Below, one piece after another: positions 2,772 through 20,329 of a stretch of 44,855 nucleotides of DNA (position 1 is the stretch's first letter; each line of letters starts with the position of its first letter). The notes under the pieces were generated by a model. It saw only the letters and a program-made list of their open reading frames with translations. It had not been told where the DNA came from and ran no database searches. Origin of the DNA: a phage. The position numbers were made by a program, and so were the translations under genes. The stretch lies in NCBI GenBank assembly GCA_012164735.1, contig GCA_012164735.1_4544.1. The stretch is one strand, 5' to 3'.

Positions 2772-2843
2772 ATTCTGCGCGCATTGGTTGCCATTTTGAG
2801 TGTTTTTATCCAGTCGCATTGGTTGCCGTGTAGTGTAAATATA

Positions 2844-3049
2844 GTGAATAGTTATGCAGTTTTATTGCATAAACTAAGCGGGACAAAAAGCGGGACAAAC
2901 AAGGGGCGGGACAAAGCGGGACAGCACCCCAGTCCCGCCCCGGATGGCGCGGCTTCCGGAGGAGCGGGACAGCGGGACAGCACCCCAGTCTTTCAGACTA
3001 GACGGGGGTCAGCGGCCCCCCTCGTCTGAGACTGAATAAAATCCGGAGA
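2844..3049. repeat. Copy 1 of a ~206-bp duplicated non-coding element: GCGGGACA iterons (direct at 2878, 2890, 2906, 2916, 2964, 2972; inverted at 2932) plus a 67-bp imperfect palindrome (2983-3049)
   Basis: Direct comparison with 20071-20276; immediately downstream of the primase-helicase gene. Confidence 0.8.
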
Positions 3050-3251
3050 TTGCAAAATACACGGCAGCATGATGCGAAGTGCGGTCATGGATGAACTAGG
3101 CAACCAATGCGGGTTGTATTATGCTGAGTGAAAAATGCGGTTTGCAGTTGCAGCAGATAGCGATCAACTTTTTCATACGCATGATTAATATTGGTTGCAT
3201 TCAGCCTAGCACCCTGCTAGATTGGTTGCACACCAACATGAGGACTGAACA

Positions 3252-3557
3252 ATGAGAGCATTAATCTGGAAATACTCACGGGCCATAGCGAAGCTGGACG
3301 AAGCGAAAAACACAAACGGCAACGTAGACTATGCGCGCCAGTTTGCGGCACGGGCACACCAACACATCATGAGTGCGCTCGACGATATGGACGCCAGCAT
3401 GGATGACCTGGGTCCGCTGCGTAAGGCTATCCATGAATACGCGCTGGCATTCTCCCGTGAGCGCCTGGCCTATCGCTTCGGTATTGGCGATAAGGCAGTG
3501 ACAAACGTCGCCCGGATTAAAGCACAGCGCGAACTATTCGCCCAGCTTGCGAAATAA
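3252..3557 (+). CDS. Hypothetical protein
   Basis: 101-aa ORF with RBS gagga 8 nt upstream. Confidence 0.5.
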   Translation: MRALIWKYSRAIAKLDEAKNTNGNVDYARQFAARAHQHIMSALDDMDASMDDLGPLRKAIHEYALAFSRERLAYRFGIGDKAVTNVARIKAQRELFAQLAK

Positions 3558-3566
3558 GGGGCCAAA

Positions 3567-3836
3567 ATGGGCCGTAGACGAGCTAATCAGCTTTCTTGGC
3601 ATATTCCCCTGCATTGCATACGAATATGGGCTAAGAACGCGATTGAGGGCGATTCCGTGTACTGGTGCTATCGCGACGATGTGAAGCCACTTACGCAGAC
3701 TCGCTACTTGCACCAGTTCGCAGCACAACATGGTTTCTATGTGCGGACTTCCTTGCAACCAATGGGAATACGTATTACATTACGCCGGAAGCCCGCCGTT
3801 GAGCGGGTAGGCAAACACTGGAGACTGAGCAAATGA
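3567..3836 (+). CDS. Hypothetical protein, probable diverged member of a tandem paralog family (C-terminus ERVGKHWRLSK)
   Basis: 89-aa ORF; RBS aagggg; 3' junction ctggagactgagcaaATGa duplicated at the next gene boundary. Confidence 0.4.
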   Translation: MGRRRANQLSWHIPLHCIRIWAKNAIEGDSVYWCYRDDVKPLTQTRYLHQFAAQHGFYVRTSLQPMGIRITLRRKPAVERVGKHWRLSK

Positions 3837-4177
3837 TTCGAGTAACCGCACGCCGCGAACAATCGGGGGCCACTTACGATGTAATCGACGTTCGCGGCGC
3901 GTTCGTCATCTTCGGACGGGGTGACGACCGGCTGGCGCTGCCGATCGGTATGCTGAGCACATACGACTATTTCAAGCATAACGTCCGGTGTGGCGATGTG
4001 CTGCGCGATAAGCGCACCGGTGAGCTATGGACGGTGGCGAGTATTTGGGTGAAAGATAAACGGCAGCACACGTTATTGCTCGCCCGCCCGGATTGCAAAC
4101 AGCAAACTATTAACACTATTGGCCTGGTGGACTACACCCGCGTAGGCCGTAACGCTACCTGGAGACTGAGAAAATGA
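3833..4177 (+). CDS. Hypothetical protein, tandem paralog family (GDVLRD ... LWTV ... VDYTRVGR motifs)
   Basis: 114-aa ORF; ATGA start/stop overlap with upstream gene; shares motifs with 4174-4746. Confidence 0.55.
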   Translation: MIRVTARREQSGATYDVIDVRGAFVIFGRGDDRLALPIGMLSTYDYFKHNVRCGDVLRDKRTGELWTVASIWVKDKRQHTLLLARPDCKQQTINTIGLVDYTRVGRNATWRLRK

Positions 4178-4746
4178 AATTACTATTCCGCCGTAAATCA
4201 GATGGCTATATCCTGAAGCCGATCCAGACCTTATCGAACTGGGTACGCCTCCACCACGTTGCAAGCGATAAAGTCTGGTGGGCGACTAAGGCAAAGCTGC
4301 CGGAGTACTACGAAATCCTCACACACGATATCGAGCACGGCGATGTGCTGCGTGATATTCGCGACGGGCAGTTGTGGGTCGTGGAATACACCTACCGGCA
4401 CGGCCTGCGTATGACGTCCCGCAAGGATGGCGTAGCGGGCAACATGGTCAAGGGCATGACGTACTTCGGGCTAATCAACTACGAACGAGTGGGCCGCAAG
4501 TACAGCAAGCGTGACCACCAGCCACATGAGCGCGTTGATTTCCGCAAGTCCCAGCCGGAATATGCGACCTACGACGCAAGCAAAGCGCAGGGTGCTATTC
4601 GCCAGGCCGCACATGAAATCGTCAATCGCTTTGATGCCGTGGCGAACGCCCAGCGCATGGCCCGTGACTACGGCGTGGCTTTCATCCGCGTGGAATACGA
4701 CGGCAGCATTACCGCAGTTCACCCGCAGAAGATTATCCAGAAATGA
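4174..4746 (+). CDS. Hypothetical protein, tandem paralog family (GDVLRD ... LWVV ... INYERVGR motifs) with C-terminal extension
   Basis: 190-aa ORF; ATGA overlap with upstream gene. Confidence 0.55.
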   Translation: MKLLFRRKSDGYILKPIQTLSNWVRLHHVASDKVWWATKAKLPEYYEILTHDIEHGDVLRDIRDGQLWVVEYTYRHGLRMTSRKDGVAGNMVKGMTYFGLINYERVGRKYSKRDHQPHERVDFRKSQPEYATYDASKAQGAIRQAAHEIVNRFDAVANAQRMARDYGVAFIRVEYDGSITAVHPQKIIQK

Positions 4747-4883
4747 GTGCGACTATCCGGGATATGCTCATGCATAACCGCTTTGAGATAGGCGGGCGAG
4801 TGTTCTGCAATTACTTCGTGGCGCGTGCTTTGGCGCGCCATATCGGAAAACCAGAAGGGGAAATACGATGCTACACGATTTGA
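4743..4883 (+). CDS. Small hypothetical protein (46 aa), translationally coupled
   Basis: ATGA overlap with upstream stop; not in ORF track because under 60 aa; hand-translated. Confidence 0.3.
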   Translation: MSATIRDMLMHNRFEIGGRVFCNYFVARALARHIGKPEGEIRCYTI

Positions 4884-5155
4884 TATATTGGTTTGGTTTG
4901 GCCTGCGGACTATGCCTGATTACGGCGGTGCTGGGCGCAATATGGGTATTCCTGGTATGGCCTGCGATGGAAGCTGCCAGCATTACCCGGATGACGTTCC
5001 AGATATACAAGCGCCGAGGCATAACGGAACACCCGACCAGGTTGCGCATGTGGTGGCTATGGTATCTGGATATGATTGGGGGCCGAAGGTTTGAGGCCGT
5101 CCGGTCATCCGGGTGGGAATGGAAAGGCGTAGGCAAGTGGTCCATTTTCGATTAA
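4868..5155 (+). CDS. Small membrane protein (hydrophobic N-terminus)
   Basis: 95-aa ORF, RBS aagggg, predicted TM segment LIYWFGLACGLCLITAVLGAIWVFLVW. Confidence 0.4.
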   Translation: MLHDLIYWFGLACGLCLITAVLGAIWVFLVWPAMEAASITRMTFQIYKRRGITEHPTRLRMWWLWYLDMIGGRRFEAVRSSGWEWKGVGKWSIFD

Positions 5156-5172
5156 ATATGCAAGCGTGATAT

Positions 5173-5207
5173 AGTCCCAGTGAGCTAAAACTTACTGGGA
5201 CTTTTTT
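5173..5207 (+). terminator. Rho-independent terminator
   Basis: Stem agtcccagt/actgggact with 12-nt loop followed by T5-6. Confidence 0.55.
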
Positions 5208-5498
5208 ATGGATAAGCTAAACGAGTGGTTATTCGCCCTCGCGTGTCTTGCAGGTGGCTTCGTTGGCGCTCGCATTCACGGGGAGGCAACGAAAGGGCCG
5301 CTAAACTTTGTGTTGTTTATCGTGGTCGGCTTCTTGTGTGCCGTGTTCGGTGCACCGGCTATTGCTGAGTGGTTTAATCTAACCGGACCGAGAACGGTTG
5401 CCGGTCTTGGCTTCGTTACTGCCATCTTCTGGATGCCGGTAGCTGCCAGAATCCGAGAAGCAATTTCCTCGTTCCGTCTGCCGGGGGGTGCAAAATGA
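5208..5498 (+). CDS. Holin candidate (multi-TM small membrane protein)
   Basis: 96 aa, several hydrophobic segments; directly upstream of second membrane protein and the endolysin. Confidence 0.45.
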   Translation: MDKLNEWLFALACLAGGFVGARIHGEATKGPLNFVLFIVVGFLCAVFGAPAIAEWFNLTGPRTVAGLGFVTAIFWMPVAARIREAISSFRLPGGAK

Positions 5499-5737
5499 TT
5501 ATCGCCATCCTGTTATTAGTGATCGGGGCTTCGTCGCTGTATAACGTATACGCGCCATCCGTCCAGGATGGCATTTGCGGACGGGTGCTCTACTTGCTTA
5601 CAGCAATGACCTGTATTATTGGCCTGATGCAAACGGGGGACGTATCGAATACAGTCTGGTCCGTGCTAATCTGGCTATTCGCATTGCGCACGCTGCGTAA
5701 TGCGGTTTTAAATGGGGTAAAACATGCGATTCAGTGA
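5495..5737 (+). CDS. Holin/antiholin candidate (small membrane protein)
   Basis: 80 aa, two hydrophobic segments, overlaps neighbours by 4 and 14 nt. Confidence 0.45.
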   Translation: MIIAILLLVIGASSLYNVYAPSVQDGICGRVLYLLTAMTCIIGLMQTGDVSNTVWSVLIWLFALRTLRNAVLNGVKHAIQ

Positions 5738-6215
5738 CAACGGTCTAAGATTTACGGCAGCCTGGGAGTCATTCAGCCCGGTGCCGTATTTCGCGACTAA
5801 GAAAGAGCAGGCCCGCGGCCTGTATACCTGGGGCTATGGTCATACTGGCACTAATCCGCCGCGGAGCATTACCCGCGCGGAAGCGCTGGATCTACTCAAG
5901 CGTGATGTGGCGTATGCTGAGAACTGGGTGAACAAGTACGCGCATTCGAGTATCAATCAGGCGCAATTCGACGCGCTGGTGGACCTGGTAATCAATGCCG
6001 GTCAGGGTCCAATCGTACCGGACAACATTGCCAACGACTTCGATGACGCGGTGCGCCTGGGTGACTGGGCGAAAGTCCGTGCTACACTGCCACAATTCCG
6101 CAAGCAAGGCGGTGAAGTGCTCAAGGGTCTGGTCCGTCGTGCAATCGGCAGACAGGCGCTATTCGATGGTAAGCAGTGGGACGTTGCCGAGAAAATCGGG
6201 CGTAACGCAGCATAA
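5724..6215 (+). CDS. Endolysin, lysozyme-like (GH24-type glycosidase)
   Basis: 163 aa; E ... GLYTWGYGHTG resembles T4-lysozyme-type catalytic Glu plus GYGH motif. Confidence 0.7.
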   Translation: MRFSDNGLRFTAAWESFSPVPYFATKKEQARGLYTWGYGHTGTNPPRSITRAEALDLLKRDVAYAENWVNKYAHSSINQAQFDALVDLVINAGQGPIVPDNIANDFDDAVRLGDWAKVRATLPQFRKQGGEVLKGLVRRAIGRQALFDGKQWDVAEKIGRNAA

Positions 6216-6230
6216 TACGAGGAACACAGT

Positions 6231-6398
6231 ATGTTAAAAAGCATTCTTGATCATAACGCGGACGCGCTTGCCGCACTGGCTAAAACCGAAGACCCAGGCG
6301 CACGCGCCATTATCGCGGACACAATCAGTCATGCGGGTGTCTTTGACGCGAAGCTGCCAAGCCCGCCACCGCCGGAAGAACCAGGCCCAGCGGCCTAA
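6231..6398 (+). CDS. Small hypothetical protein (55 aa, Pro-rich C-terminus)
   Basis: RBS gagga 7 nt upstream; followed by terminator; hand-translated. Confidence 0.35.
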   Translation: MLKSILDHNADALAALAKTEDPGARAIIADTISHAGVFDAKLPSPPPPEEPGPAA

Positions 6399-6404
6399 CC
6401 ACGC

Positions 6405-6430
6405 AAGCCCGGCTAATGTCGGGCTTTTTA
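6405..6430 (+). terminator. Rho-independent terminator
   Basis: Stem aagcccg/cgggctt, loop 8 nt, T-run. Confidence 0.55.
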
Positions 6431-6494
6431 TTGCTTGACTTGCAACCAACACAGAGGCCATACTGCAACCAATCAACGAGAGGAGTAACACACT

Positions 6495-6575
6495 ATGACA
6501 CGCAATGATATTTATGTACTGGCAATCTGGTCCGCCGCCGCATTCATCGGTATGGTTATTTGCGAATTGCTATAG
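6495..6575 (+). CDS. Candidate micro-ORF encoding a 26-aa hydrophobic peptide
   Basis: Strong RBS gagaggag 7 nt upstream of ATG; sequence MTRNDIYVLAIWSAAAFIGMVICELL; downstream of paired GCAACCAAT motifs. Confidence 0.3.
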   Translation: MTRNDIYVLAIWSAAAFIGMVICELL

Positions 6576-6636
6576 CCCGCCGCCATAGGGACCGTGGTAT
6601 ATTGTCCCCGGACCCATAATCAGGAAGTAAATTAAT

Positions 6637-7779
6637 ATGCACCCTCAAACTAAAATTACCGACGAGCAATTGATCGCTGAATTGCAATCTGGCACTACCT
6701 CGAAAGATATTGCGAAGAAATACGGCATTGCCCTTCGAAATGTCTATATGCGCAAAGCCCGCCTGTCGAAGAAAGGCATTGGACACGGCAACGATGCTGT
6801 AATCCGCAAGCGCGTTGCCGATGGCTTCGGCGTTAAGCGTGTATCAGCCCTGGTGCGCGGCAATGGCGAAGAGGTCATGTCCTGGGTCATCACCGAGCAG
6901 GACAAGGAGCGCCAACTTGAAGCAATGCGCGCCGTTGTCGAGGGTATGAACAGCGAAATCACACCGGCAGCACCAGTGAGCGCTCCGCCAGTCCCGATCC
7001 AGGCGCTTGACCTGCTTAACCTGTATACCGTGTCAGACTTCCACCTGGGAATGTTGGCGTGGGGCGAGGAGACTGGCGAGGACTGGGATATGGCAATCGC
7101 CGAAGACCTTTTTTACCGCTGGTTTGTCGAAGCCTTCGCCCGCGCGCCGGACGCTGGCACTGCTGTAATCAATATCCTCGGTGATATGGCCCACTTTGAC
7201 AGCCTTGACGCCGTCACGCCAGCCAGTGGTCACGTACTGGATGCCGATACCCGCTACCAGAAGTTGGTCCGCTACATGATTCGCATGGTGCGCAACGTGG
7301 TTGAACTGGCGCTGCAAAAACACCATAAGGTCAAACTGCTAATCGTCCAGGGTAATCATGATGAGTCCGGTATGATTTGGCTGGCTGAAATGTTCAATAC
7401 CCTGTACGAGAACGAGCCACGCGTCGATGTTGACACGTCACCTGACGTCTACAAAATGGTGCAGCACGGTAAGACAACGCTGTTCTTCCACCACGGACAC
7501 AAGGCACGCTTTGACGCCATCGAACCGGTCATGATTTCTAAATTCAGACAGGCTTTCGGGTCCAGTGAGTACAGCTACGCGCACGTAGGCCACTTGCACC
7601 ACCAGAAGATTGTTGAATCCCGCAACATGATTGTTGAACAGCACCGGACCCTTGCCGCGAAAGACGCATACGCAAGCCGCGGCGGTTGGATGTCCGGTCG
7701 CAGTGCAAACGTCATCACCTATAGCGCCAACTACGGCGAAGTAGCGCGCTTAACCATTAGCCCGGAAATGTTGAAATGA
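6637..7779 (+). CDS. Metallophosphoesterase (Mre11/SbcD-like motifs) with N-terminal HTH-like region
   Basis: 380 aa; motifs VSDFHLG, ILGDMAHFD, VQGNHDE, HHGHK typical of calcineurin-like phosphoesterases; RBS aggaag. Confidence 0.6.
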   Translation: MHPQTKITDEQLIAELQSGTTSKDIAKKYGIALRNVYMRKARLSKKGIGHGNDAVIRKRVADGFGVKRVSALVRGNGEEVMSWVITEQDKERQLEAMRAVVEGMNSEITPAAPVSAPPVPIQALDLLNLYTVSDFHLGMLAWGEETGEDWDMAIAEDLFYRWFVEAFARAPDAGTAVINILGDMAHFDSLDAVTPASGHVLDADTRYQKLVRYMIRMVRNVVELALQKHHKVKLLIVQGNHDESGMIWLAEMFNTLYENEPRVDVDTSPDVYKMVQHGKTTLFFHHGHKARFDAIEPVMISKFRQAFGSSEYSYAHVGHLHHQKIVESRNMIVEQHRTLAAKDAYASRGGWMSGRSANVITYSANYGEVARLTISPEMLK

Positions 7780-7988
7780 TTAGACAAGTATTCATGAGCA
7801 CGCAGGCCACCCGCCTGAAAGAGCTTCGCAAACAGCTTGAAGGCTTGCGCCGATTCGAACGAACGGCAGCGGCAATAGGCATGTCTATCAGTGAGCGGAT
7901 CGAGATACTATCGCAAATACGCTACACAGAAGGCGCTATAAGCGAAGTTGAAAGCATGTTGACCAGATACTACGGTCGCGCCGTTTAA
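7776..7988 (+). CDS. Hypothetical protein
   Basis: 70-aa ORF overlapping upstream stop (ATGA). Confidence 0.4.
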   Translation: MIRQVFMSTQATRLKELRKQLEGLRRFERTAAAIGMSISERIEILSQIRYTEGAISEVESMLTRYYGRAV

Positions 7989-7995
7989 CCCTCCC

Positions 7996-8021
7996 AGCCC
8001 GCCGATTTGGTGGGCTTTTTT
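7996..8021 (+). terminator. Rho-independent terminator
   Basis: Stem agcccgcc/ggtgggct (one G-U), T6. Confidence 0.5.
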
Positions 8022-8026
8022 GTGCC

Positions 8027-8035
8027 TGTTATAAT
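8027..8035 (+). promoter_or_regulatory. Extended -10 promoter candidate (TGtTATAAT) upstream of terminase genes
   Basis: TG at 8027-8028, TATAAT at 8030-8035. Confidence 0.4.
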
Positions 8036-8105
8036 CCCCCTTAGATGGCTGGGCCGTCTCCTATGTTGCCGATGGTCGGCGCATATGCATAAAAGGGCTT
8101 ATATC

Positions 8106-8657
8106 ATGGCAGAAATCAAAGTTAAGGGCCGTCGTGCCAAACTGGACGGTCGAGTAGCAGTTACCCCGCGCCGTAAACCAGGCGAGCAAACAGAACACAC
8201 CAATCTTGGACCCGAGATCGAATACGGCAAGCGTCGTAAAGGCGGCAAATGTGGACGCCCGACCGACTACCGCACCGTGTATTGTGATCAGCTTCGTCGC
8301 TATTTCGCCGATGCCGTAGCCTGGCAGATCAACTACTCTGACAAGGGTGCTGCGCAAGTCATCCCTCACAACAAGATGCCGACTCTCGGTCGCTTTGCTG
8401 CGGATATTGGCGTTGGCATCGCTTGCCTGTACCGCTGGGCGCGTGCACATGAGGAGTTCGCCGAGGCGATGGCTGACGCAATGGAGTTGCAGAAAACTTT
8501 CTTGATGGAAGCTGGCGGTGTGACCATCGCGGCGGGCTTCGCTACGTTCCTGCTTAAAGCCAACCACGGCATTCGTGACGATGCGCCGCTGGATGACGAC
8601 GAAGGTGATAACGGCGACGTCGTTGTGGAACCTACCGGCAAAGGCCAGGGCGAATAA
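8106..8657 (+). CDS. Terminase small subunit (putative; start at ATG 8106 preferred over ORF-track start 8007)
   Basis: Immediately upstream of, and overlapping, the large terminase; RBS aaaggg; synteny. Confidence 0.5.
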   Translation: MAEIKVKGRRAKLDGRVAVTPRRKPGEQTEHTNLGPEIEYGKRRKGGKCGRPTDYRTVYCDQLRRYFADAVAWQINYSDKGAAQVIPHNKMPTLGRFAADIGVGIACLYRWARAHEEFAEAMADAMELQKTFLMEAGGVTIAAGFATFLLKANHGIRDDAPLDDDEGDNGDVVVEPTGKGQGE

Positions 8658-10042: not shown

Positions 10043-10052
10043 GGAAACGACT

Positions 10053-13094: not shown

Positions 13095-13107
13095 TGGCCC
13101 CTTTTTC
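13084..13107. terminator. Bidirectional rho-independent terminator between convergent genes
   Basis: Stem aggggcc/ggcccct, loop gtaat, T5 on plus; A/T flank on minus. Confidence 0.6.
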
Positions 13108-13108
13108 G

Positions 13109-13873: not shown

Positions 13874-13916
13874 TATTGTGTCCTCATTGTTGGGGCTTTC
13901 GCCCCTGTTGGTTTAG

Positions 13917-14324: not shown

Positions 14325-14352
14325 CTTGTTTTCCTTCATATCTCTGTTGGTG

Positions 14353-14375
14353 TGCAACCAATATATGCAACCAAT
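14353..14375 (+). promoter_or_regulatory. Paired TGCAACCAAT motifs (14353-14362, 14366-14375) in a divergent intergenic region
   Basis: Two perfect 10-mers 13 bp apart. Confidence 0.5.
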
Positions 14376-14414
14376 ACGAGGATTGCAAGCGAATTTTGCG
14401 ATTATTTTTATCGC

Positions 14415-14423
14415 TGATAATAT
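14415..14423 (+). promoter_or_regulatory. Extended -10 promoter candidate (TGaTAATAT) preceded by TCGCTGATA, upstream of scaffold and capsid genes
   Basis: Same TCGCTGATA-extended -10 arrangement recurs at 20281-20293. Confidence 0.35.
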
Positions 14424-14478
14424 TAGAAGCGTGAAGTCGAGCGGGTGGCCTGCTCTGCCACAATCCCAGGGGGATAGC

Positions 14479-15180
14479 ATGAAACTTACTAAAGCAGAAT
14501 ATGACGCGTTGCCGGAAGGTATGAAGGCGCTTTTTGTTGCCGATGGCGACGGGTATAAATCAACTTTCATGACCGCAGAAGAAGTACAGGCGGAAATCAA
14601 GGGTCTGAAAGACAACAACGCGAAGCTGGTGAGCGAGAAGAAAGCAGAAGCTGAACGCCGCGCCGAAGCCGAGCGACTTGCGAAAGAGAAAGAGGAAGCC
14701 GCTGCGCGCAAAAATGGCGACCTCGAAGCGATCGACAAGTCCTGGAAAGATAAGTTTGCGAAACACGAAGCAGACACATCGGGAAAAATCGAAGCCTACC
14801 GCAAGCAGATCCACGATCTCACCATCGGCAGCGCCGCCAAAGACCTGGCGTCGAAGCTGTTCGGTAAGAATGCGGGCATCATGCAACGTCACGTTATGGA
14901 CCGCCTGACGCTGGAAGACGGCGAAGACGGCAGCTTGAAAGTGCGTGTCTTGCAGGATGGCAAACCGTCCGCGCTGACTATGGAAGAGCTTGAAAAAGAG
15001 TTCCGTAATAACGCCGATTTTGCATCCGTCCTGGCTGGCACGCCAGCCGGTGGCGCGCCTAGCAAACCGACGCAGGTTGTCGAAGATGTGAAGTCTAAAA
15101 TTACGATGGGCCATAGCTTCGGTATCACCGATCTCACCAAACAGGCCGGGGATATCATCGCTAAAATGGGCGACGAGTAA
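14479..15180 (+). CDS. Scaffolding protein (putative), start at ATG 14479
   Basis: 233 aa, charged coiled-coil-like sequence; RBS aggggga; immediately upstream of major capsid gene. Confidence 0.5.
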   Translation: MKLTKAEYDALPEGMKALFVADGDGYKSTFMTAEEVQAEIKGLKDNNAKLVSEKKAEAERRAEAERLAKEKEEAAARKNGDLEAIDKSWKDKFAKHEADTSGKIEAYRKQIHDLTIGSAAKDLASKLFGKNAGIMQRHVMDRLTLEDGEDGSLKVRVLQDGKPSALTMEELEKEFRNNADFASVLAGTPAGGAPSKPTQVVEDVKSKITMGHSFGITDLTKQAGDIIAKMGDE

Positions 15181-15185
15181 GCAGA

Positions 15186-15209
15186 TTGCCCGCGAAAGCG
15201 GGCAATTTT
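15186..15209 (+). terminator. Rho-independent terminator
   Basis: Stem ttgcccgc/gcgggcaa, GAAA loop, T4. Confidence 0.5.
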
Positions 15210-15277
15210 GCGAGCGCGTAAAACTAAGGTAACATTAATGCCACTGGGCGAATGCTCACAACTCAAAGGATTTCGAT

Positions 15278-16378
15278 ATGTCTTTAACAGTGTTCCAGCG
15301 TAAACTCGTTACCGCGGTTACGCAAATGATCCCCGACAACCTGAACGTTTTCAACGCCGCCGCCAATGGCGCTATTGTTCTCGGTACTGGTGAAGTGCTG
15401 AAGGATGTTGTTGAGAAAATGTCCGTAGGCTTGATCGCCAACCTTGTTACCGACCGTAACGCCTACGCCCCTGTCGGTACTCCGGCAACCGCTAAAGTGC
15501 TGGCGCGTATGTTGACCAACTCGGTTAACCTTTCCGCTAAAGTGGGTCCGGTAGCAATCACGAAGGCCATGATGGCTAAAATCGAAACCAACGTTAATAG
15601 CGTTGCGGCTGAGATTGCGGCACAGGCTACTCAAGCGATTATGCTGCACTACCTAAAAGCGGGTATCGGTGCGGGTAAAGCGGCGATCGAAAGCAACGCA
15701 GCGGCAAAATACACCCAACCGGCGCGCGTTGACGGCGTTGGCGGTCGTACCTTCCCGACCCTGGCAGACTTCCCGCTGGCGGCTTCTAAGTTCGGCGATC
15801 AGGCGTCTTTGATTAAGTCCTGGTTTATGGACGGCGTTACCTGGGCAAACTTCATTGCGTACCAGGCACTCCCTTCCGCTGAACAGGTATTCGCAATTGG
15901 CGATCTACAGGTAATGGGTGATGGCCTGGGCCGTCGCTTCATTATCTCCGATGCCGCTGCCGATGCTATGGGCGCTGGTAACATGCTGGGTCTGGTCCCC
16001 GGCGCGGTTGCAGTTACCACCAACGGCCTCGATATGCTGGCGCAGGAGAAAGGCGGTAACGAGAACATCGAACGCTGGTGGCAGGGCGAGTTCGACTTCA
16101 ACGTGGCCGTTAAAGGCTACCGTCTGAAGGCGTCCGCTCGTACCCCGATCGAAGGTGTGCGCTCGTTCAAACTGGACGATATTACCACTTCCGCTAACTG
16201 GGAACTGGACCAGGGCCAGGTAGACAACGCACCGGCAACCGTGCAGGACGTTGGCGCTGTGGGTGATGGTGATACTAAAGGTCGTCGTAAGACCCAGGCC
16301 GCACAGGCAGTGCCTACCCGTCACATCAAGGAAACCGCTGGCGTACTGGTTACGCTGACTGCGACTACCGCGTCTTAA
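15278..16378 (+). CDS. Major capsid protein
   Basis: 366 aa, RBS aagga, followed by strong terminator; synteny. Confidence 0.75.
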   Translation: MSLTVFQRKLVTAVTQMIPDNLNVFNAAANGAIVLGTGEVLKDVVEKMSVGLIANLVTDRNAYAPVGTPATAKVLARMLTNSVNLSAKVGPVAITKAMMAKIETNVNSVAAEIAAQATQAIMLHYLKAGIGAGKAAIESNAAAKYTQPARVDGVGGRTFPTLADFPLAASKFGDQASLIKSWFMDGVTWANFIAYQALPSAEQVFAIGDLQVMGDGLGRRFIISDAAADAMGAGNMLGLVPGAVAVTTNGLDMLAQEKGGNENIERWWQGEFDFNVAVKGYRLKASARTPIEGVRSFKLDDITTSANWELDQGQVDNAPATVQDVGAVGDGDTKGRRKTQAAQAVPTRHIKETAGVLVTLTATTAS

Positions 16379-16396
16379 CGGGCGCACATCCCAAAG

Positions 16397-16421
16397 GGGC
16401 GGGCTTATGCCCGCCTTTTTT
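16397..16421 (+). terminator. Rho-independent terminator after capsid gene
   Basis: Stem gggcgggc/gcccgcc, loop ttat, T6. Confidence 0.65.
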
Positions 16422-16436
16422 ATAGGAGTGAATACA

Positions 16437-16937
16437 ATGTATGGCGACCCGCAAACCTTTGTCGATTATGCCGCTGCGCGAGGCGTTGAAATTACGCTAG
16501 GCGATGCAACGCGACACCTTACCATCGTTAACGACTTTCTTAACGGCATCAACTGGATCGGCGAACCGGCGGACCAGACAGGAATAGACGCATGGCCCCG
16601 CATCAATTACCCATCGGACGGGAAGCCGGTGCGCGACACGCTAACCGAAGTCGTGGCGGTAGTGCCTGTCGGGCAAATCGTAGACTTTGCATCAATCCCC
16701 GTTGCCGTTGAGCAAGCTGTTTACCGGCTGGCGCTGTTGGTGGCGGACGAGATCGATATTTCTCCGGTCGGCGATGGTAAAGAGACTATCCGCGAAACGG
16801 TCGGCCCGATCACGATGGAATATGACCCGGCGTCGATTGGTAGCGGGGTGTCGTTCCCGTGGTGGGATGGCTTGTTAGGGCACTGGGTTGATTCAGGCGG
16901 CAACGCCGCAGGCAATTTCGACGTATTCAGGGGGTGA
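16437..16937 (+). CDS. Hypothetical structural protein (possible head-tail connector), start at ATG 16437
   Basis: RBS aggag; ORF-track start 16407 lies inside the terminator. Confidence 0.45.
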   Translation: MYGDPQTFVDYAAARGVEITLGDATRHLTIVNDFLNGINWIGEPADQTGIDAWPRINYPSDGKPVRDTLTEVVAVVPVGQIVDFASIPVAVEQAVYRLALLVADEIDISPVGDGKETIRETVGPITMEYDPASIGSGVSFPWWDGLLGHWVDSGGNAAGNFDVFRG

Positions 16938-17041
16938 TATGAATCCTGCATTACTCGCGGCGATTATCGCCGCCAACGCTAAACGGCAACCAGAACAACC
17001 GGAGCCAGAACCAGTACCACCGGCACAGGAGAGTGAAGAAG

Positions 17042-17395
17042 ATGGCGGGCTTTAATTACGCAGGATTAAAGCGGAAAGTTAATCCGCTGATTAAAAAATT
17101 CGGCATGACCGTTACGGTTACGCGTCCGGGATCGGTTGACCGCGTAGACGGCGAAGAAGTGGTCATCCCGCCGACCTCGTTTGACGTCATCGGTCTTCGC
17201 GAGGAGTACAAGCCTAGCGAGATCGACGGGACGCGTATCGTTGCCGGTGATGTGAAGTTTTTATGTCGGGCGGTTGAGCAATTGCGGGTGGGCGACCTTG
17301 TTAACCTGAACGGCACTGACTACCGGGTCGTCAACCCTAACCCACTGCAACCGGCGGGCACTACCATGCTGTTTCAACTACAGCTAAGGGGCTAA
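17042..17395 (+). CDS. Head-tail joining protein (putative)
   Basis: Position between capsid and tail genes; RBS aggag. Confidence 0.4.
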   Translation: MAGFNYAGLKRKVNPLIKKFGMTVTVTRPGSVDRVDGEEVVIPPTSFDVIGLREEYKPSEIDGTRIVAGDVKFLCRAVEQLRVGDLVNLNGTDYRVVNPNPLQPAGTTMLFQLQLRG

Positions 17396-17396
17396 C

Positions 17397-17990
17397 GTGG
17401 CTGAAGTCTACTCATTCGCCGCCACTATTGCTACGTGGGTGGATAAGACGAAGGAGAACAACGATAAGGCGGTGCGGGCGTACGGGATGCAAATACTAGG
17501 ACGCCTGATCGAGATCTCCCCAGTAGGCGACCCCCGCCGGTGGAAAATTAACAGGGCTTACGCGCTGGCCCGCCAGCACGCGAACAAGGTGAACGCCGCG
17601 CAGCGTCGCAAGAATGGTGGCAAACTGAAGCGCGGGCAGAAAAAGCACGCCAGCGTGCTGGTATCATTCAAAACTAAAAACGGCAACGTCACGTTCCGCC
17701 AGCGTGGCTGGGCTGCGAAGAATTACACCGGCGGGCGCTTCCGTGGTAACTGGCAGGTGACGTTTGATCGCCCGGCTGTCGGCGCTATTGATCGCGTTGA
17801 CAAGGCCGGAACGGCAACATTAGCCGCGGGGCGTGAAGTGCTGGCGCATTACGATTCGAGTGAATACGGGTCGATCTGGTTTACTAACAACGTGCCATAC
17901 GCGCAGCGACTTGAGTATGGCTGGAGTAAACAAGCGCCCGCGGGGATTGTTCGCGTCGTAGCGGCAGAAATTAATTCGAAGGTGAAATAA
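17397..17990 (+). CDS. Head-tail connector / tail completion protein (putative), GTG start
   Basis: 197-aa ORF, synteny. Confidence 0.4.
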   Translation: MAEVYSFAATIATWVDKTKENNDKAVRAYGMQILGRLIEISPVGDPRRWKINRAYALARQHANKVNAAQRRKNGGKLKRGQKKHASVLVSFKTKNGNVTFRQRGWAAKNYTGGRFRGNWQVTFDRPAVGAIDRVDKAGTATLAAGREVLAHYDSSEYGSIWFTNNVPYAQRLEYGWSKQAPAGIVRVVAAEINSKVK

Positions 17991-18412
17991 TGAGCAATAC
18001 CGCAATCCGCAAAGCGCTTAACAGCGTGGTTGAAGAGTTATCGGCAAGCCTGAGCACAAGCCAGCGTCCGATTATGGTTAACTGGGAGAACGTGAGCGGC
18101 GACCACGCAAACGGCAGCGGTGTCTACCTGGAGCCGTACCTGCTACCGGCCCCGACCCAGTTTGTGGGCTTACAGCAGAAGGGCCGGATCTATGCTGGCG
18201 TATATCAGGTTGCCGTGGTGTTCCCGGCGGGCACAGGCACACAGTACGCGAGCGAACTGGCGGACGCCATCGCTACATCGGATAAGTGGTCGGCGGTGAA
18301 GATTTCCGGCGCGTCATTTCAGCTTCAGGACGCGCCATACACCAGTTCAGTGATTGAAGACGTTGATCGCGCCCGCATCGTGGTTACAGTCCCCTACACC
18401 TGTTGCGCCTGA
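17990..18412 (+). CDS. Tail terminator / tail completion protein (putative)
   Basis: 140 aa, ATGA overlap, immediately upstream of major tail protein. Confidence 0.4.
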   Translation: MSNTAIRKALNSVVEELSASLSTSQRPIMVNWENVSGDHANGSGVYLEPYLLPAPTQFVGLQQKGRIYAGVYQVAVVFPAGTGTQYASELADAIATSDKWSAVKISGASFQLQDAPYTSSVIEDVDRARIVVTVPYTCCA

Positions 18413-18473
18413 TTTGGCGCAATTCTGCGCGTGCTGTATCATTAAACCGTATATCTAAACAGGAGCGTTCATT

Positions 18474-19199
18474 ATGGGTTATCAACTTCCTAACGGGTCC
18501 AGCGTGCAGATCGGGTCCGTATTGGGTGCAGGCATCGCAGTTACGGCAGCGACCAACGCCGCGGCGTCAATCTCCGATCTTACGCAAGGATGCGTTATCA
18601 CCTGCGCGGCGTCGCATGGTCTTGCTGTGGGAGACGTGGTTATGTTCACTAAAACCCCGTGGGTACGTGCGCTTAACCGCGCGTTCATCGTGGGTAAAGT
18701 GGATACTAACGACGTGACGCTGGCGCGCTTCGATACTCAAGACGTAACCAAATACCCGACCGGTGCTTTCGGAGTAGGCACACCGGGTGAGGTGGTGAAG
18801 GTGTCGAGCTTTATCGACTTCCCGTTTATCACTAACGTTGCCGTGTCGGGTGGCGACCAGCAGACCACCACCTTCCAGCCGTTGCAGGTGAATACCGCGA
18901 TCAGTCTGAACACCACGAAAAACCCGTTGGTCCAGACCTACACTTTCACCCACGACGAAGAAGACCCGATCCGCCCGATTCTGGAAGACCTGGACGACAC
19001 ACAGAAAACCACTGTGATTAAGTTCACCAACCCGGCAGCGGCAAGCGGCAAAGGTGAGATCCGCATTTACCCGGCTAAGGTGTCTTTCCAGAAGATTCCA
19101 TCTGCTGAAGTAAATAACGTGGAGACGGTGGAGTCCACCCTCACTATGCAGTCCGATATGGTTATTTACCGTAAGGACTTGGTCGAGGCGCTGTCGTAA
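18474..19199 (+). CDS. Major tail protein (tube)
   Basis: 241 aa, strong RBS, followed by terminator then the G/GT chaperone pair. Confidence 0.6.
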   Translation: MGYQLPNGSSVQIGSVLGAGIAVTAATNAAASISDLTQGCVITCAASHGLAVGDVVMFTKTPWVRALNRAFIVGKVDTNDVTLARFDTQDVTKYPTGAFGVGTPGEVVKVSSFIDFPFITNVAVSGGDQQTTTFQPLQVNTAISLNTTKNPLVQTYTFTHDEEDPIRPILEDLDDTQKTTVIKFTNPAAASGKGEIRIYPAKVSFQKIPSAEVNNVETVESTLTMQSDMVIYRKDLVEALS

Positions 19200-19229
19200 T
19201 TTGGTCGCTTAAATAGCGGGTGTTAATAT

Positions 19230-19252
19230 GGGGCCAGTACGGCCCCTTTTTT
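19230..19252 (+). terminator. Rho-independent terminator
   Basis: Stem ggggcc/ggcccc, loop agtac, T6. Confidence 0.6.
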
Positions 19253-19269
19253 ATTGGAGAATTACATAA

Positions 19270-19631
19270 TGGCTAAATCACCACTCTTCACACTTGACCC
19301 TAAACCGACATTTAAGCTGCCGATTGAGATCCCGCGCCCTGGTGAGAACGAACCGGGCAAAATGACGTTTACCGTGCGCCACCGCCCTATCGACGAATTT
19401 TCGCAGACCATGCAGGACACTGAGCGCAAATTGTCGGAGTATGACGACAATGACCCGGAAGGATTTAACGTTATGGTCGAGGCCATCATGCACGTCGCTG
19501 AAGGCTGGAATTTGCCGGACGAATTTAATGCTGCCAACGTCCGCCGCCTGGTGGTCAACTACCCGCGCGCGTTCGGCGTGTTCCATACGTCGTACTATCT
19601 CGAACTGATGGGGTTGCGTGAAAAAAACTAA
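19270..19631 (+). CDS. Tail assembly chaperone (lambda G-like), zero-frame product
   Basis: Position before tape measure; ends at a slippery site. Confidence 0.65.
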
Positions 19632-19945
19632 TTGAGGCGGCGCGACGCTTTTATGGCCCGCCGCCACCCTCCGAAGATTTAGCTGCGAGTTTATGGGGCG
19701 CGACCCCTGAAGATGTTTGCCCGCCGGTTGCGCTATGGCCTGACAACGCGAAGGTAGTCGCCGTCTTCACTGATTGCTCCACGCAATGGCGCACCGGATT
19801 CGGTGGCGCATACGGCATCGACTACGGTGTACTGGAATGGCTATTTAAGATGCACGGCATCGAAAACGCGCAACGTGCGTTTAAAGATATCAAGCTAATG
19901 GAACGCGTTGCGCTGGATGAAATGGCGCGGCAGAACCACGCATAG
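19270..19945 (+). CDS. Tail assembly chaperone GT-like fusion via programmed -1 frameshift at A_AAA_AAC (19622-19628)
   Basis: Open -1 frame from 19628 to stop TAG 19943-19945 (105 codons) directly after a canonical slippery heptamer. Confidence 0.55.
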
Positions 19946-19949
19946 CGGA

Positions 19950-20276
19950 GCGGGACAGGCGGGACGTCCCGTTTTGTCCCGCCACAATTAAACCGCATAT
20001 ATACTCACTTTCATTGCATAAACTAAAAGCGGGACAGGGGAGCTGTCCCGATCTGTCCCGCACCCAAAATGTGAATATCTATTCAGTTTTCGTGCATAAA
20101 GTAAGCGGGACAAAAAGCGGGACAGAATGAGGCGGGACAAAGCGGGACAGCACCCCTGTCCCCGTCAGTGCTGCCGCGGGTTTTAGCCGATCGGGACTGG
20201 CGGGACAAACCCCAGTCTTTCAGACTAGACGGGGGTCAATGGCCCCCCTCGTCTGAGACTGAATAAGGTTTGTTTT
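19950..20276. repeat. Copy 2 of the duplicated element and additional iterons: GCGGGACA direct at 19950, 19959, 20029, 20105, 20117, 20132, 20142, 20200; inverted at 19975, 20044, 20054; 67-bp palindrome at 20210-20276
   Basis: Counted directly; 20071-20276 aligns with 2844-3049. Confidence 0.8.
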
Positions 20277-20284
20277 AAATTCGC

Positions 20285-20293: not shown

Positions 20294-20329
20294 GACCGAC
20301 GGCAACTGCATAAAAAGGGGGACTGCATA

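What the first reader, a model, noticed from the sequence alone, without database searches (positions are those of the whole stretch)
2844..20276. Two paralogous ~206-bp non-coding elements carrying GCGGGACA iterons, 17 kb apart
2844-3049 and 20071-20276 align along their whole length, with one diverged internal segment (2924-2982 versus 20151-20209). Both are packed with direct and inverted copies of GCGGGACA: at least 6 direct and 1 inverted in copy 1, and at least 8 direct and 3 inverted across 19950-20207. Copy 1 sits directly 3' of the primase-helicase gene, which has a possible C-terminal DNA-binding domain. Copy 2 fills an unusual ~385-bp gap between the G/GT chaperone and the tape measure gene. 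This resembles an initiator with a primary and an auxiliary iteron site, as in the phage P4 ori/crr arrangement. A transcriptional regulator binding array is the alternative.
Basis: partly seen in the sequence, partly recalled or inferred. Interest (0 to 1): 0.85.

Follow-up and report, generated by a model that had tools for sequence, protein, structure and literature searches.

The report
Twin iteron-type replication origin modules
An E. coli Dhillonvirus phage carries two copies of a ~200-bp non-coding module (AT-rich head, CGGGAC repeats, conserved hairpin) that is most likely the binding and loading site for its primase-helicase, so it is a probable pair of replication origins, an arrangement already known from phages SPP1 and P4.

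Summary
2844-3039 and 20071-20266 are 82% identical. GCGGGACA occurs 19 times against 2.2 expected, and 15 of those lie in the two loci. The window is a Dhillonvirus (HK578-like). Essentially all of the 159 public genomes carry both copies, and each copy is 204-207 nt long. The Sodalis phage SO-1 GenBank record already annotates them as repeat "region A" and "region B".

I found no evidence for coding, for a known RNA family, for structural covariation, or for sigma-70 promoter or terminator signals inside the element.

Comparative data favour an origin. Every relative of the primase-helicase that I examined (44-68% identity) has a 350-650 bp gap directly after the gene, and that gap holds a lineage-specific short-repeat array (GGGGGAGA, GGGGATC, ACTCGCAA, TCGCAA, TTCCGCACA). 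The protein models as an AEP primase (RepB'-like), a RepA-type helicase and a C-terminal winged helix. The winged helix diverges fastest, and its similarity between lineages tracks repeat similarity. CGGGACA arrays in unrelated viral contigs again sit just 3' of distant AAA_25 helicase genes or inside an O-like initiator gene.

Best reading (about 0.6): these are iteron origins with RSF1010- and P4-like logic, arranged at two loci like SPP1 oriL/oriR. It is not a P4 alpha family member. This is a new member of a known kind, of moderate interest, and it is untested experimentally.

The parts
507..2771 (+). Primase-helicase gene (754 aa), the putative initiator: N-terminal AEP primase, central AAA_25/RepA-type helicase, C-terminal winged helix.
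2499..2726 (+). Region encoding the C-terminal winged-helix domain (about aa 665-740), the candidate reader of the CGGGAC repeats.
2830..2877 (.). Copy 1 AT-rich head: GTGAATAG box (2844-2851) and palindrome TTATGCA-N7-TGCATAA (2852-2872). Candidate DNA unwinding element.
   Evidence: 72% AT against 45% for the genome; only 0.47% of 40-nt windows reach 70% AT. The GAATAGTTAT box is also conserved in Salmonella phage vB_STM-ZS. The palindrome loop occurs in both orientations among genomes.
2878..2979 (+). Copy 1 repeat array: direct GCGGGACA at 2878, 2890, 2906, 2916, 2964 and 2972; inverted core GTCCCG at 2932-2937; diverged middle at 2939-2963.
   Evidence: CGGGAC is invariant at the four 5' positions in 28 distinct copies, while the spacers vary.
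2986..3034 (.). Copy 1 terminal irregular hairpin: CAGTCT..AGACG-G5 / loop / C5-(bulge)-CGTCT..AGACTG. Candidate single-strand initiation (ssi-like) or loading structure.
   Evidence: DNA fold -13.4 kcal/mol, z = -3.2. Stems are invariant; the loop (TCAGCGG, TCAATGG, GTCTGGCA, GTATTGTC) and the bulge (T, G, TC) vary. vB_STM-ZS has a double hairpin of different sequence at the same place. There is no T-run after it, and the scan called no terminator.
2783..3229 (.). Five copies of a second motif, ATTGGTTGC, bracket copy 1 (2783+, 2818+, 3100-3108 on the minus strand, 3190+, 3221+). This is a promoter- or operator-type motif, not specific to the element.
   Evidence: 16 exact copies genome-wide. 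Several sit in a TTGCAT-17-nt-(-10 hexamer) arrangement upstream of genes.
19946..20070 (.). Extra material at locus 2: a palindromic octamer module at 19950-19982 (two direct plus two inverted cores) and a partial head-plus-octamer module at 20014-20061.
   Evidence: The 19950-19982 hairpin folds at -12.9 kcal/mol, z = -3.6. The modules are conserved in other Dhillonviruses.
20071..20266 (+). Copy 2 of the full module: head 20071-20104; direct octamers at 20105, 20117, 20132, 20142 and 20200 (plus a core at 20192); hairpin 20213-20261.
   Evidence: Present between the chaperone and tape measure genes in 159 phage records.
20285..20293 (+). Extended -10-like promoter element TGATACAAT between copy 2 and the tape measure gene start (20330).
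   Evidence: Read directly from the sequence; CTGATACAAT is conserved in the region A copies of other genomes. It is a consensus match only and function is not shown. A single occurrence is not significant on its own.

Best explanation
Each ~200-bp element is an iteron-type replication origin module, and the cis site for the phage's own primase-helicase.

Inferred mechanism:
1. The C-terminal winged helix of the 754-aa protein binds the CGGGAC repeats.
2. Oligomerisation of the RepA-type helicase ring melts the adjacent 72%-AT head.
3. The conserved terminal hairpin, and the hairpins formed by direct and inverted octamers, extrude in single-stranded DNA and act as a loading or priming signal for the AEP primase domain. 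This parallels ssiA/ssiB for RepB' in RSF1010.

Copy 1, directly 3' of the gene, is the ancestral site, because every related lineage has one there. Copy 2 is a Dhillonvirus-specific duplicate inserted between the tail chaperone and tape measure genes. It is kept under selection and partly homogenised with copy 1. It acts either as a second origin or as an initiator-bound auxiliary or barrier site, as proposed for SPP1 oriR or P4 crr.

Shown here: the anatomy, its conservation, the protein domain folds, and the comparative associations.
Inferred: binding, melting, priming, and any role for copy 2.
For: - Position. The array starts 73-107 nt after the primase-helicase stop. All six relatives examined (44-68% identity) also have a 350-650 bp non-coding gap there, carrying a dense array of a short repeat in direct and inverted copies. 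The repeat differs by lineage: CGGGACA (L035), GGGGGAGA (vB_STM-ZS, 5 of 5 genome copies), GGGGATC (L036), ACTCGCAA (L037, 6 of 6), TCGCAA (L038), TTCCGCACA (L039).
- Shared module plan. ZS has the same layout as the window: GAATAGTTAT head box, direct repeats, inverted repeat, about 30 nt of middle, another repeat, then a double hairpin. Only the repeat and hairpin sequences differ.
- Winged-helix divergence. The winged-helix part diverges faster than the rest of the protein and tracks the motif. The two same-motif pairs have the highest C-part identities, 59% and 55%. L037 is 63/64/61% identical to L038/L039/L036 in the N-part but 55/43/32% in the C-part.
- Small HTH gene. The small HTH gene upstream is non-homologous between Dhillonvirus and ZS, even though their modules are homologous.
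- Independent contigs. A search for CGGGACA-N4-CGGGACA in viral contigs found arrays directly 3' of three distant AAA_25 helicase genes of about 730-760 aa (one truncated at its locus edge; 24-27% identity to the window's protein). It also found arrays inside an O-like initiator ORF in three contigs.
- Selection. Element length is 204-207 nt in 32 distinct copies, CGGGAC is invariant, and spacers vary.
- AT-rich head. It is in the top 0.5% of 40-nt windows for AT content.
- Concerted evolution. In the 5' part, copies A and B within a genome are more alike than copies between genomes (78.0% against 73.7%, permutation p about 0.002).
- Precedent. SPP1 has a two-origin layout in a 44-kb siphovirus (PMC6316719).
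Against: - There is no experimental datum. No origin has been mapped in any Dhillonvirus that I could find.
- GC skew simply follows transcription direction and does not point to either locus.
- Both copies have the same orientation as the flanking genes and are followed by promoter-like signals, which also fits a transcriptional role.
- The winged-helix/motif correlation rests on 7 lineages and is partly confounded by phylogeny. The distant helicases with CGGGAC arrays have C-termini that do not align with the Dhillonvirus winged helix.
- A second origin in the middle of a tail operon is unusual, and the sister lineage ZS manages without one.
Confidence: 0.6

Rival explanations
1. Transcriptional control module. 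The CGGGAC array binds a phage regulator, possibly the same winged helix or another protein. The hairpins attenuate or insulate read-through from the upstream operon, and the promoter just downstream is switched on or off. The effect would be to set the early-to-late boundary after the primase gene and to lower or re-time tape measure and distal tail gene expression.
For: - Both copies sit at operon-type boundaries, in the same orientation as the flanking genes.
- Promoter-like elements follow both copies: ATTGGTTGC/TTGCAT-17-TAGATT at 3190-3229 and TGATACAAT at 20285-20293. ZS has TTGCAA-17-TAATAT after its array.
- Some public records annotate a hairpin in the element as a 'terminator'.
- A partial stop between highly expressed tail tube/chaperone genes and low-copy tape measure genes would make stoichiometric sense (inference).
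Against: - No CGGGAC clusters occur at any other promoter. The 4 remaining octamers are scattered singles, close to the chance expectation of 2.15.
- No hairpin is followed by a T-run, and the scans call no + strand terminator or sigma-70 promoter in the elements.
- This reading does not explain why arrays of lineage-specific repeats always sit next to the primase-helicase gene, or inside O-like initiator genes, in unrelated phages.
- It also does not explain the AT-rich head or the strict 206-nt length.
- The two roles are not mutually exclusive, since initiators often autoregulate.
Confidence: 0.22
2. Structured RNA. The element acts as RNA, either as a ~200-nt non-coding RNA or as a leader. 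Examples would be a cis-acting antitermination RNA like HK022 putL/putR, a protein sponge with repeated GGA-containing motifs, or an RNase processing/stability site in the polycistronic mRNA.
For: - The two paralogous copies are co-oriented with transcription, and copy 2 must be transcribed as part of the tail operon unless transcription terminates upstream.
- Stable hairpins are present (z = -3.0 to -4.8).
- The G-rich strand is always the coding strand of the adjacent helicase gene in Dhillonvirus, ZS, L050, L047 and L043.
- Paired put RNAs are a precedent in E. coli HK phages (my own knowledge, not checked here).
Against: - No Rfam family or tRNA/tmRNA match.
- RNAalifold on 28 distinct copies gives a covariation term of 0 and 0 of 30 pairs with compensatory change. 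This is weak evidence, because the stems never vary.
- No convincing promoter is found immediately upstream.
- Inverted copies and the flip of the head palindrome loop between genomes fit double-stranded DNA symmetry better than a strand-specific RNA.
- The association with replication initiator genes across unrelated phages is unexplained by this reading.
Confidence: 0.08
3. Selfish or neutral repeat. The element is a small mobile or recombination-spread sequence (MITE-like), or a recombination hotspot, with no role in replication or expression.
For: - There are two dispersed copies bounded by TGAATA boxes at both ends.
- There are signs of gene conversion between the copies.
- Public assemblies break inside it.
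Against: - There are exactly two copies, at the same two positions, in all of about 159 genomes, and none in 5,426 E. coli genomes or 72,556 plasmids.
- Core motifs are invariant and length is fixed to within 1-2 nt despite diverged spacers.
- There are homologous modules with different repeats in other genera at the same gene.
Confidence: 0.03

Closest known systems
Bacillus phage SPP1 oriL / oriR with origin-binding protein gp38
   Same: SPP1 is a ~44-kb virulent siphovirus with two similar origin sequences made of direct repeats plus an AT-rich unwinding element. One is at the initiator gene. The other is in an intergenic segment that interrupts the conserved late structural gene order and is bracketed by transcription signals. 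They are about 13 kb apart (17 kb here). oriR is proposed to stall forks and trigger the theta-to-concatemer switch (PMC6316719, PMC3485210).
   Different: - The SPP1 initiator is a separate origin-binding protein working with a helicase loader and a DnaB-type helicase plus host DnaG. Here a single AEP primase/RepA-helicase/winged-helix fusion is the candidate.
- SPP1 oriL lies inside gene 38; here the site is 3' of the gene.
- The repeat sequences are unrelated.
- Nothing here has been tested experimentally.
Satellite phage P4 ori / crr with alpha protein
   Same: One polypeptide carries primase, helicase and a C-terminal winged-helix domain that binds short repeats at the origin (PMC2777425, PMC4234260). 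There are two cis sites kilobases apart that carry the same octamer-type repeat. (The P4 crr details are from my own knowledge.)
   Different: - P4 alpha has a DnaG/TOPRIM-type primase and an SF3 helicase. This protein has an AEP primase fold and an AAA_25/RepA-type helicase.
- There is no sequence similarity, and the repeat sequence is different.
- Both Dhillonvirus copies are complete modules rather than an origin plus a repeat-only enhancer.
IncQ plasmid RSF1010 oriV with RepC, RepA and RepB'
   Different: - Three separate proteins in RSF1010 against one fusion here.
- RSF1010 has 20-bp iterons and two ssi sites on opposite strands. Here there are 8-bp repeats and one major hairpin per module.
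- The strand-displacement replication mode is not shown here.
Archaeal plasmid pRN1 ORF904 and its downstream stem-loop origin (also Bordetella phage BIP-1)
   Same: The operon has a small DNA-binding protein followed by a prim-pol/helicase/winged-helix replication protein. The origin lies directly 3' of that gene and contains an essential stem-loop (PMC4234260, PMC2777425).
   Different: pRN1 has an SF3 helicase, no iterons and a 100-nt stem-loop. Here there is a RepA-type helicase, a prominent iteron array and a ~49-nt hairpin.
Lambda-type ori iterons inside the O initiator gene
   Same: Arrays of short repeats bound by a winged-helix initiator, next to an AT-rich region. CGGGACA arrays were found at exactly this position inside O-like ORFs in three viral contigs.
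   Different: The Dhillonvirus array is intergenic, the initiator is a primase-helicase fusion rather than an O-type organiser, and there are two loci.

Membership tests
Iteron-type replication origin (generic) | Cluster of short, sequence-specific repeats present far above chance | tested here: met
   19 GCGGGACA against 2.15 expected, with 15 in the two loci. CGGGAC is invariant across 28 distinct copies.
Iteron-type replication origin (generic) | Adjacent AT-rich region that could serve as an unwinding element | tested here: met
   2830-2879 is 72% AT and 19990-20029 is 70% AT, against 45% for the genome. Only 0.47% of 40-nt windows reach 70%.
Iteron-type replication origin (generic) | Linkage to the gene of a replicon-specific initiator, with repeat sequence specific to the lineage | tested here: met
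   Arrays lie directly 3' of the primase-helicase gene in all 7 lineages, with 6 different motifs. C-terminal winged-helix similarity tracks the motif.
Iteron-type replication origin (generic) | Initiator protein binds the repeats | not testable with these tools
   Needs EMSA, footprinting or ChIP. Only a winged-helix fold prediction is available.
Iteron-type replication origin (generic) | DNA synthesis initiates at the site, or the site confers replication in cis | not testable with these tools
   No marker-frequency or origin-mapping data for Dhillonvirus were found in the literature searched. GC skew is uninformative.
P4 alpha / ori-crr system | Initiator with a DnaG/TOPRIM-type primase and an SF3 (D5/P4-type) helicase | tested here: not met
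   The helicase is Pfam AAA_25, RepA-type. The N-terminal model has an AEP fold: S-2L PrimPol, RepB', LigD. There is no PDB sequence hit to P4 alpha.
P4 alpha / ori-crr system | C-terminal winged-helix origin-binding domain | tested here: met
   Winged-helix fold at about aa 665-740. This is an analogous architecture, not demonstrated homology. P4 1KA8 was not among the listed top hits.
P4 alpha / ori-crr system | Two cis sites carrying the same octamer repeat, both needed for replication | tested here: inconclusive
   Two loci with the same octamer are present. Whether both are required is untestable here.
SPP1-type dual origin (oriL/oriR) | Two similarly organised repeat-plus-AT-rich sequences, one at the initiator gene and one interrupting the late genes | tested here: met
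   Copy 1 at 2844-3039 lies after the initiator gene. Copy 2 at 20071-20266 lies in a 384-bp gap in the tail operon that the ZS relative lacks (PMC6316719).
SPP1-type dual origin (oriL/oriR) | Homology to gp38, or to the gp38/39/40 initiation module | not tested
   Not compared directly. The candidate initiator is a single primase-helicase fusion, so family membership is unlikely.
IncQ (RSF1010) oriV | Iterons plus ssi stem-loops used by an AEP primase and a RepA helicase | tested here: inconclusive
   The protein folds and Pfam family match RepB' and RepA, and a conserved hairpin is present. Priming at the hairpin is untested, and only one major hairpin per module was seen.
Known structured RNA families (Rfam), tRNA/tmRNA | Match to a curated covariance model, or covariation-supported structure | tested here: not met
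   0 Rfam hits at gathering threshold. 0 tRNA/tmRNA. RNAalifold covariation term 0.

The most novel reading that the evidence does not exclude
Copy 2 is not just a spare origin. It is an initiator-bound checkpoint placed inside the tail operon. When the primase-helicase binds there, it either stalls the first replication forks, switching theta replication to recombination-driven concatemer synthesis as proposed for SPP1 oriR, or it physically couples tape measure and distal tail gene expression to replication. In either case the hairpin-rich, melted iteron modules would be the DNA structure that defence sensors such as P2 OLD detect in HK578 infection. That would explain why OLD escapers map to the primase-helicase gene and its promoter (bioRxiv 10.64898/2026.07.10.737580).
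Probability: 0.2. Interest if true: 0.65.

Novelty: new member of a known kind. Interest (0 to 1): 0.5.

Why it matters
Dhillonviruses (HK578 and several BASEL phages) are now widely used to probe anti-phage defence, yet I could find no report of a mapped replication origin for them.

A concrete prediction with coordinates makes several things directly testable:
- where replication starts;
- whether a single AEP-primase/RepA-helicase/winged-helix fusion carries out the whole RSF1010- or P4-type initiation programme in a virulent phage;
- whether a second origin-like site in the tail operon acts as an origin, a barrier or a regulator;
- whether origin hairpins are what OLD- or Lamassu-type sensors see in these phages.

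The lineage-specific repeats paired with variable winged helices also offer a natural set of orthogonal initiator/origin pairs. The kind of system itself is well known, so the finding is useful rather than surprising.

Tried and rejected
- **Known RNA.** Rfam and tRNA/tmRNA found nothing.
- **RNA structure by covariation.** RNAalifold on 28 distinct copies gave no compensatory pairs. The Dhillonvirus copies are too similar for this to be decisive.
- **Sigma-70 promoters and intrinsic terminators.** The scans found none in either locus apart from one minus-strand terminator-like match, about what chance gives.
- **Coding potential.** Stop codons occur in all + strand frames in nearly all copies, with no codon periodicity. 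The 81-aa ORF at 2784-3029, and the 'hypothetical protein' calls in some public records, are therefore spurious.
- **GC skew as an origin indicator.** It mirrors gene orientation only.
- **Small HTH protein (167-496) as the repeat binder.** Judged less likely. It is non-homologous between Dhillonvirus and ZS, although their modules are homologous.
- **Second motif ATTGGTTGC as the iteron.** Rejected for this phage. There are 16 dispersed copies in promoter-like arrangements.
- **Satellite or host mimicry.** The element has no match in E. coli genomes or plasmids.
- **Physical genome ends in region A.** Three public records break there. This is best explained by assembly breaks at a repeat.
- **DnaA-box resemblance.** TGTGAATAT is 8/9 to the box complement, but roughly 30 such near-matches are expected by chance (my own estimate). 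Not pursued.
- **Considered from the sequence only and left as speculation.** A Rho utilisation site on the C-rich minus strand, G-quadruplex or R-loop priming, and primase recognition-site arrays. None explains the invariant CGGGAC together with lineage-specific replacement.
- **Profile search of PDB sequences.** No useful hit for the protein family.
- **Literature.** Searches found no paper that characterises the regions.
- **Not achieved.** I could not read the truncated end of the SO-1 note ('possible ...'). I also could not check whether the 68%-identity sister lineage (L026/L035) has a second copy, because its tail region was outside the fetched DNA.

Full report
**What the window is.** A 301-nt query around copy 1 matches 159 phage records at 80-96% identity, almost all of them Escherichia or Shigella Dhillonvirus (HK578-like siphoviruses). 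Typically there are two matching places per record. The 441-nt query around copy 2 matches the same 159 records. The gene order matches Sodalis phage SO-1. An early divergent promoter region lies at the window ends. A small HTH gene (167-496) and the primase-helicase gene (507-2771) follow. Then comes a 480-bp gap, then small genes, lysis genes and the structural operon. A 384-bp gap separates the tail chaperone frameshift product (open to 19945) from the tape measure gene (20330).

2844-3049 and 20071-20276 align with 169/206 identities. Two conserved blocks flank a diverged middle, and homology ends at about 3039 / 20266. GCGGGACA occurs 19 times against 2.15 expected, and no shuffle reaches 19. 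Fifteen of the 19 lie in the two loci. At the CGGGAC core there are 6 direct and 1 inverted in copy 1, and 9 direct and 4 inverted in 19946-20329. Locus 2 holds more than one module: a palindromic octamer block (19950-19982), a partial head-plus-octamer block (20014-20061) and then the full copy.

**It had been noticed before.** The SO-1 GenBank record (GQ502199) annotates 'region A' (chaperone/tape measure gap) and 'region B' (after the helicase/primase gene). Other records label parts of the element 'repeat_region' or 'terminator'. I found no paper that analyses the regions. A 2026 preprint on P2 OLD treats the HK578 helicase-primase as a replication-initiation gene but maps no origin.

**Anatomy and conservation.** From 17 IMG/VR Dhillonvirus genomes plus the window I extracted 32 distinct copies. 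Each is 204-207 nt long, almost always 206, even though the middle ~35 nt differs between A-type and B-type copies.
- The order is fixed: an AT-rich head (GTGAATAG box plus TTATGCA-N7-TGCATAA palindrome), four direct [A/G]CGGGACA sites, one inverted core, a variable middle, two more direct sites, and a terminal irregular hairpin.
- CGGGAC is invariant at the four 5' sites, while the spacers vary.
- The hairpin stems are invariant, while its loop and 3' bulge vary. It folds at -13.4 kcal/mol as DNA, z = -3.2.
- The head reaches 72% AT in a 45%-AT genome, which puts it in the top 0.5% of 40-nt windows.
- The head palindrome's loop occurs in both orientations in different genomes. That fits a symmetric DNA site better than a strand-specific RNA.
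- In the 5' part, A and B copies from the same genome are more alike than copies from different genomes (permutation p about 0.002, ungapped measure). This suggests gene conversion or co-evolution.

**What it is not.**
- No Rfam family, tRNA or tmRNA matches.
- RNAalifold finds no compensatory changes (covariation term 0). This neither supports nor excludes structure, because the stems never vary.
- No sigma-70 promoter or + strand intrinsic terminator is called in either locus, and no hairpin is followed by a T-run.
- Nearly all copies have stops in every + strand frame, and variation shows no codon periodicity.
- The element is absent from 5,426 E. coli genomes and 72,556 plasmids.

**The adjacent protein.**
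- Pfam finds only AAA_25 (RepA-type helicase) at aa 357-531.

The protein is not a P4 alpha homologue, since alpha has a DnaG-type primase and an SF3 helicase (PMC2777425). In effect it fuses the three RSF1010 functions: RepB' primase, RepA helicase and an iteron-reader.

**Comparative evidence.** This is the strongest part of the case. Relatives of the protein at 44-68% identity all have a 350-650 bp non-coding gap immediately after the gene. That gap carries a dense array of a short repeat in direct and inverted copies, and the repeat differs by lineage.

| Lineage | Repeat |
|---|---|
| L035 (68% identity) | CGGGACA, with the same hairpin |
| Salmonella phage vB_STM-ZS | GGGGGAGA (all 5 genome copies) |
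| L036 | GGGGATC[A/G] |
| L037 | ACTCGCAA (6 of 6 copies in the locus) |
| L038 | TCGCAA |
| L039 | TTCCGCACA |

ZS keeps the whole module plan: GAATAGTTAT head box, direct repeats, inverted repeats, middle, repeat, and a small-plus-large double hairpin. Only the repeat and hairpin sequences differ. That is conservation of architecture with replacement of the recognition sequence, as expected for a replicon-specific initiator site. ZS has no second copy, and its chaperone and tape measure genes are nearly contiguous. The tail-operon copy is therefore a Dhillonvirus innovation.

**Which protein reads the repeats?** In a 7-lineage alignment the winged-helix part is always more diverged than the rest of the protein. 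For example, ZS against L036 is 77% identical in the N-part but 46% in the C-part. The two same-motif pairs have the highest C-part identities (59% and 55%). L037 is about equally related to L038, L039 and L036 in the N-part (63/64/61%). In the C-part the figures are 55/43/32%, paralleling TCGCAA = TCGCAA, then the similar CCGCACA, then the unrelated GGGGATC. The small HTH protein encoded upstream is an HTH_23/sigma-r4-like protein in Dhillonvirus. In the other lineages it is an unrelated Cro-like HTH_3 protein. That makes it a poorer candidate for reading homologous modules. This argument is suggestive, not proof: it rests on few lineages and is partly confounded by phylogeny.

**Independent support from unrelated phages.** I scanned IMG/VR for CGGGACA-N4-CGGGACA. 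Besides Dhillonviruses, this returned arrays of 8-14 CGGGAC cores in other contigs.
- In L050/L051, L047 and L043 the array lies directly 3' of an AAA_25 helicase-type ORF of about 730-760 aa (the L047 ORF is truncated at the locus edge). These proteins are only 24-27% identical to the window's protein, and only within the helicase core.
- In L040, L049 and L053 the array lies inside an ORF matching 'replication initiation O-like / DnaD-like helicase loader' PHROGs. This is the classical position of lambda-type ori iterons.
- Two further arrays (L052, L048) lie near small-terminase genes and are unexplained.
- The remaining hits are 2-3-copy matches, probably chance.
- In all five helicase-linked cases the G-rich orientation is on the helicase coding strand.

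**Second motif.** ATTGGTTGC brackets copy 1 at 2783, 2818, 3108 (minus strand), 3190 and 3221. It is not specific to the element. There are 16 exact copies across the genome, several forming TTGCAT-17 nt-(-10 hexamer) promoters upstream of genes. I read it as the phage's promoter or operator signature. Copy 2 is followed by a conserved extended -10-like TGATACAAT (20285-20293) ahead of the tape measure gene. Both modules are thus bracketed by transcription signals, as described for SPP1 oriR (PMC6316719).

**Interpretation.** The best-supported reading (about 0.6) is that each element is an iteron-type origin module for the primase-helicase. The winged helix binds the CGGGAC repeats, the helicase ring melts the AT-rich head, and the hairpin(s) serve as loading or priming signals for the AEP domain. 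The closest functional analogues are:
- RSF1010 oriV (iterons plus ssi stem-loops; PMC4234260) for the anatomy;
- P4 alpha and pRN1 ORF904 for the all-in-one initiator, including pRN1's origin directly 3' of the gene (PMC2777425, PMC4234260);
- SPP1 oriL/oriR for the two-locus layout in a 44-kb virulent siphovirus (PMC6316719, PMC3485210).

Binding, melting, priming and origin firing are all inferred. The main rival (about 0.22) is a transcriptional control module. It is not exclusive of origin function. It accounts for the position and orientation of both copies, but not for the consistent linkage of lineage-specific arrays to initiator genes. A structured-RNA role (about 0.08) and a selfish repeat (about 0.03) are less likely.

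**Verdict.** It is a new, unmapped member of a well-known kind of system. The repeats themselves were already flagged in a 2009-era GenBank record. Interest is moderate (0.5). It gives Dhillonvirus model phages a precise, testable origin prediction and links to current work on defence systems that sense origin hairpins. A replication specialist would not be surprised by it.

Noticed in passing
window 2783-2791, 2818-2826, 3100-3108(-), 3190-3198, 3221-3229, 14354-14375(-), 35134-35159(-), 38090-38110(-), 30463-30471(-), 44823-44831 and others: A second repeated motif, ATTGGTTGC[A/C], has 16 exact copies (27 with up to 1 mismatch, against 12.5 expected). Copies often come in tandem pairs just upstream of genes, where TTGCAT acts as a -35 hexamer 17 nt before a -10-like hexamer. 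It looks like the phage's own promoter or operator signature. Related motifs (ATGTTGGCTGC, TGTTGGCAGC, GTTGGCCGC) occur in relatives, mostly in the post-primase gap.
   Followed up: partly
window 3061-3068; L033, L036, L037, L038, L039 post-primase gaps: The motif ACGGCAGC (CCGGCAGC in ZS) recurs downstream of the repeat array in every lineage examined, although the arrays themselves differ. Its function is unknown; it could be a conserved promoter-upstream site or an initiator site.
   Followed up: no
window 2852-2872 and the equivalent position in other Dhillonviruses (loci L002-L032): The loop of the head palindrome TTATGCA-N7-TGCATAA is GTTTTAT in some genomes and its reverse complement ATAAAAC in others. 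The hairpin segment has flipped, which suggests inversion through the inverted-repeat arms.
   Followed up: no
window 2844-2851 / about 3030-3039 and 20071-20078 / about 20257-20266: TGAATA-type boxes (GTGAATAG on the left, CTGAATAA on the right) bound the homologous element on both sides in both copies. ZS has GAATAGTTAT twice on the left and the inverted TTATTCA on the right. In copy 2, TGTGAATAT is 8/9 to the complement of a DnaA box, which is probably chance.
   Followed up: partly
window 107-135: A strong sigma-70-like promoter, TTGACA-17 nt-TAGTTT, lies upstream of the HTH/primase-helicase operon. It is probably the promoter region deleted in the HK578 OLD escaper esc2 described in bioRxiv 10.64898/2026.07.10.737580.
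   Followed up: no
window 167-496 and 6637-7779: Public annotations look misleading. The 109-aa HTH protein is called 'transposase' (PHROG 9366 and the SO-1 record), but it is a small HTH_23/sigma-r4-like protein in the replication operon. The 380-aa protein called 'putative transcriptional regulator' in SO-1 matches only calcineurin-like phosphoesterase families, and weakly, below Pfam's curated cut-offs.
   Followed up: partly
public records NC_073077 (Maverick), MZ234029 (CHD5UKE2), OX460974 (Kente); window-equivalent about 20156-20256: Three deposited genomes start or end inside region A, within or near the hairpins. This is most simply explained by assemblies breaking at the two-copy repeat, not by physical genome ends.
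   Followed up: no
loci L052 (4426-4787) and L048 (6421-6462): CGGGAC arrays (9 and 3 copies) in unrelated viral contigs lie near small-terminase genes rather than replication genes. They are not explained by the origin reading.
   Followed up: no
window 2784-3029: An 81-aa TTG-start ORF spans copy 1, and some public records annotate a 'hypothetical protein' there. Homologous copies carry stops in every frame, so it is almost certainly not a gene.
   Followed up: yes
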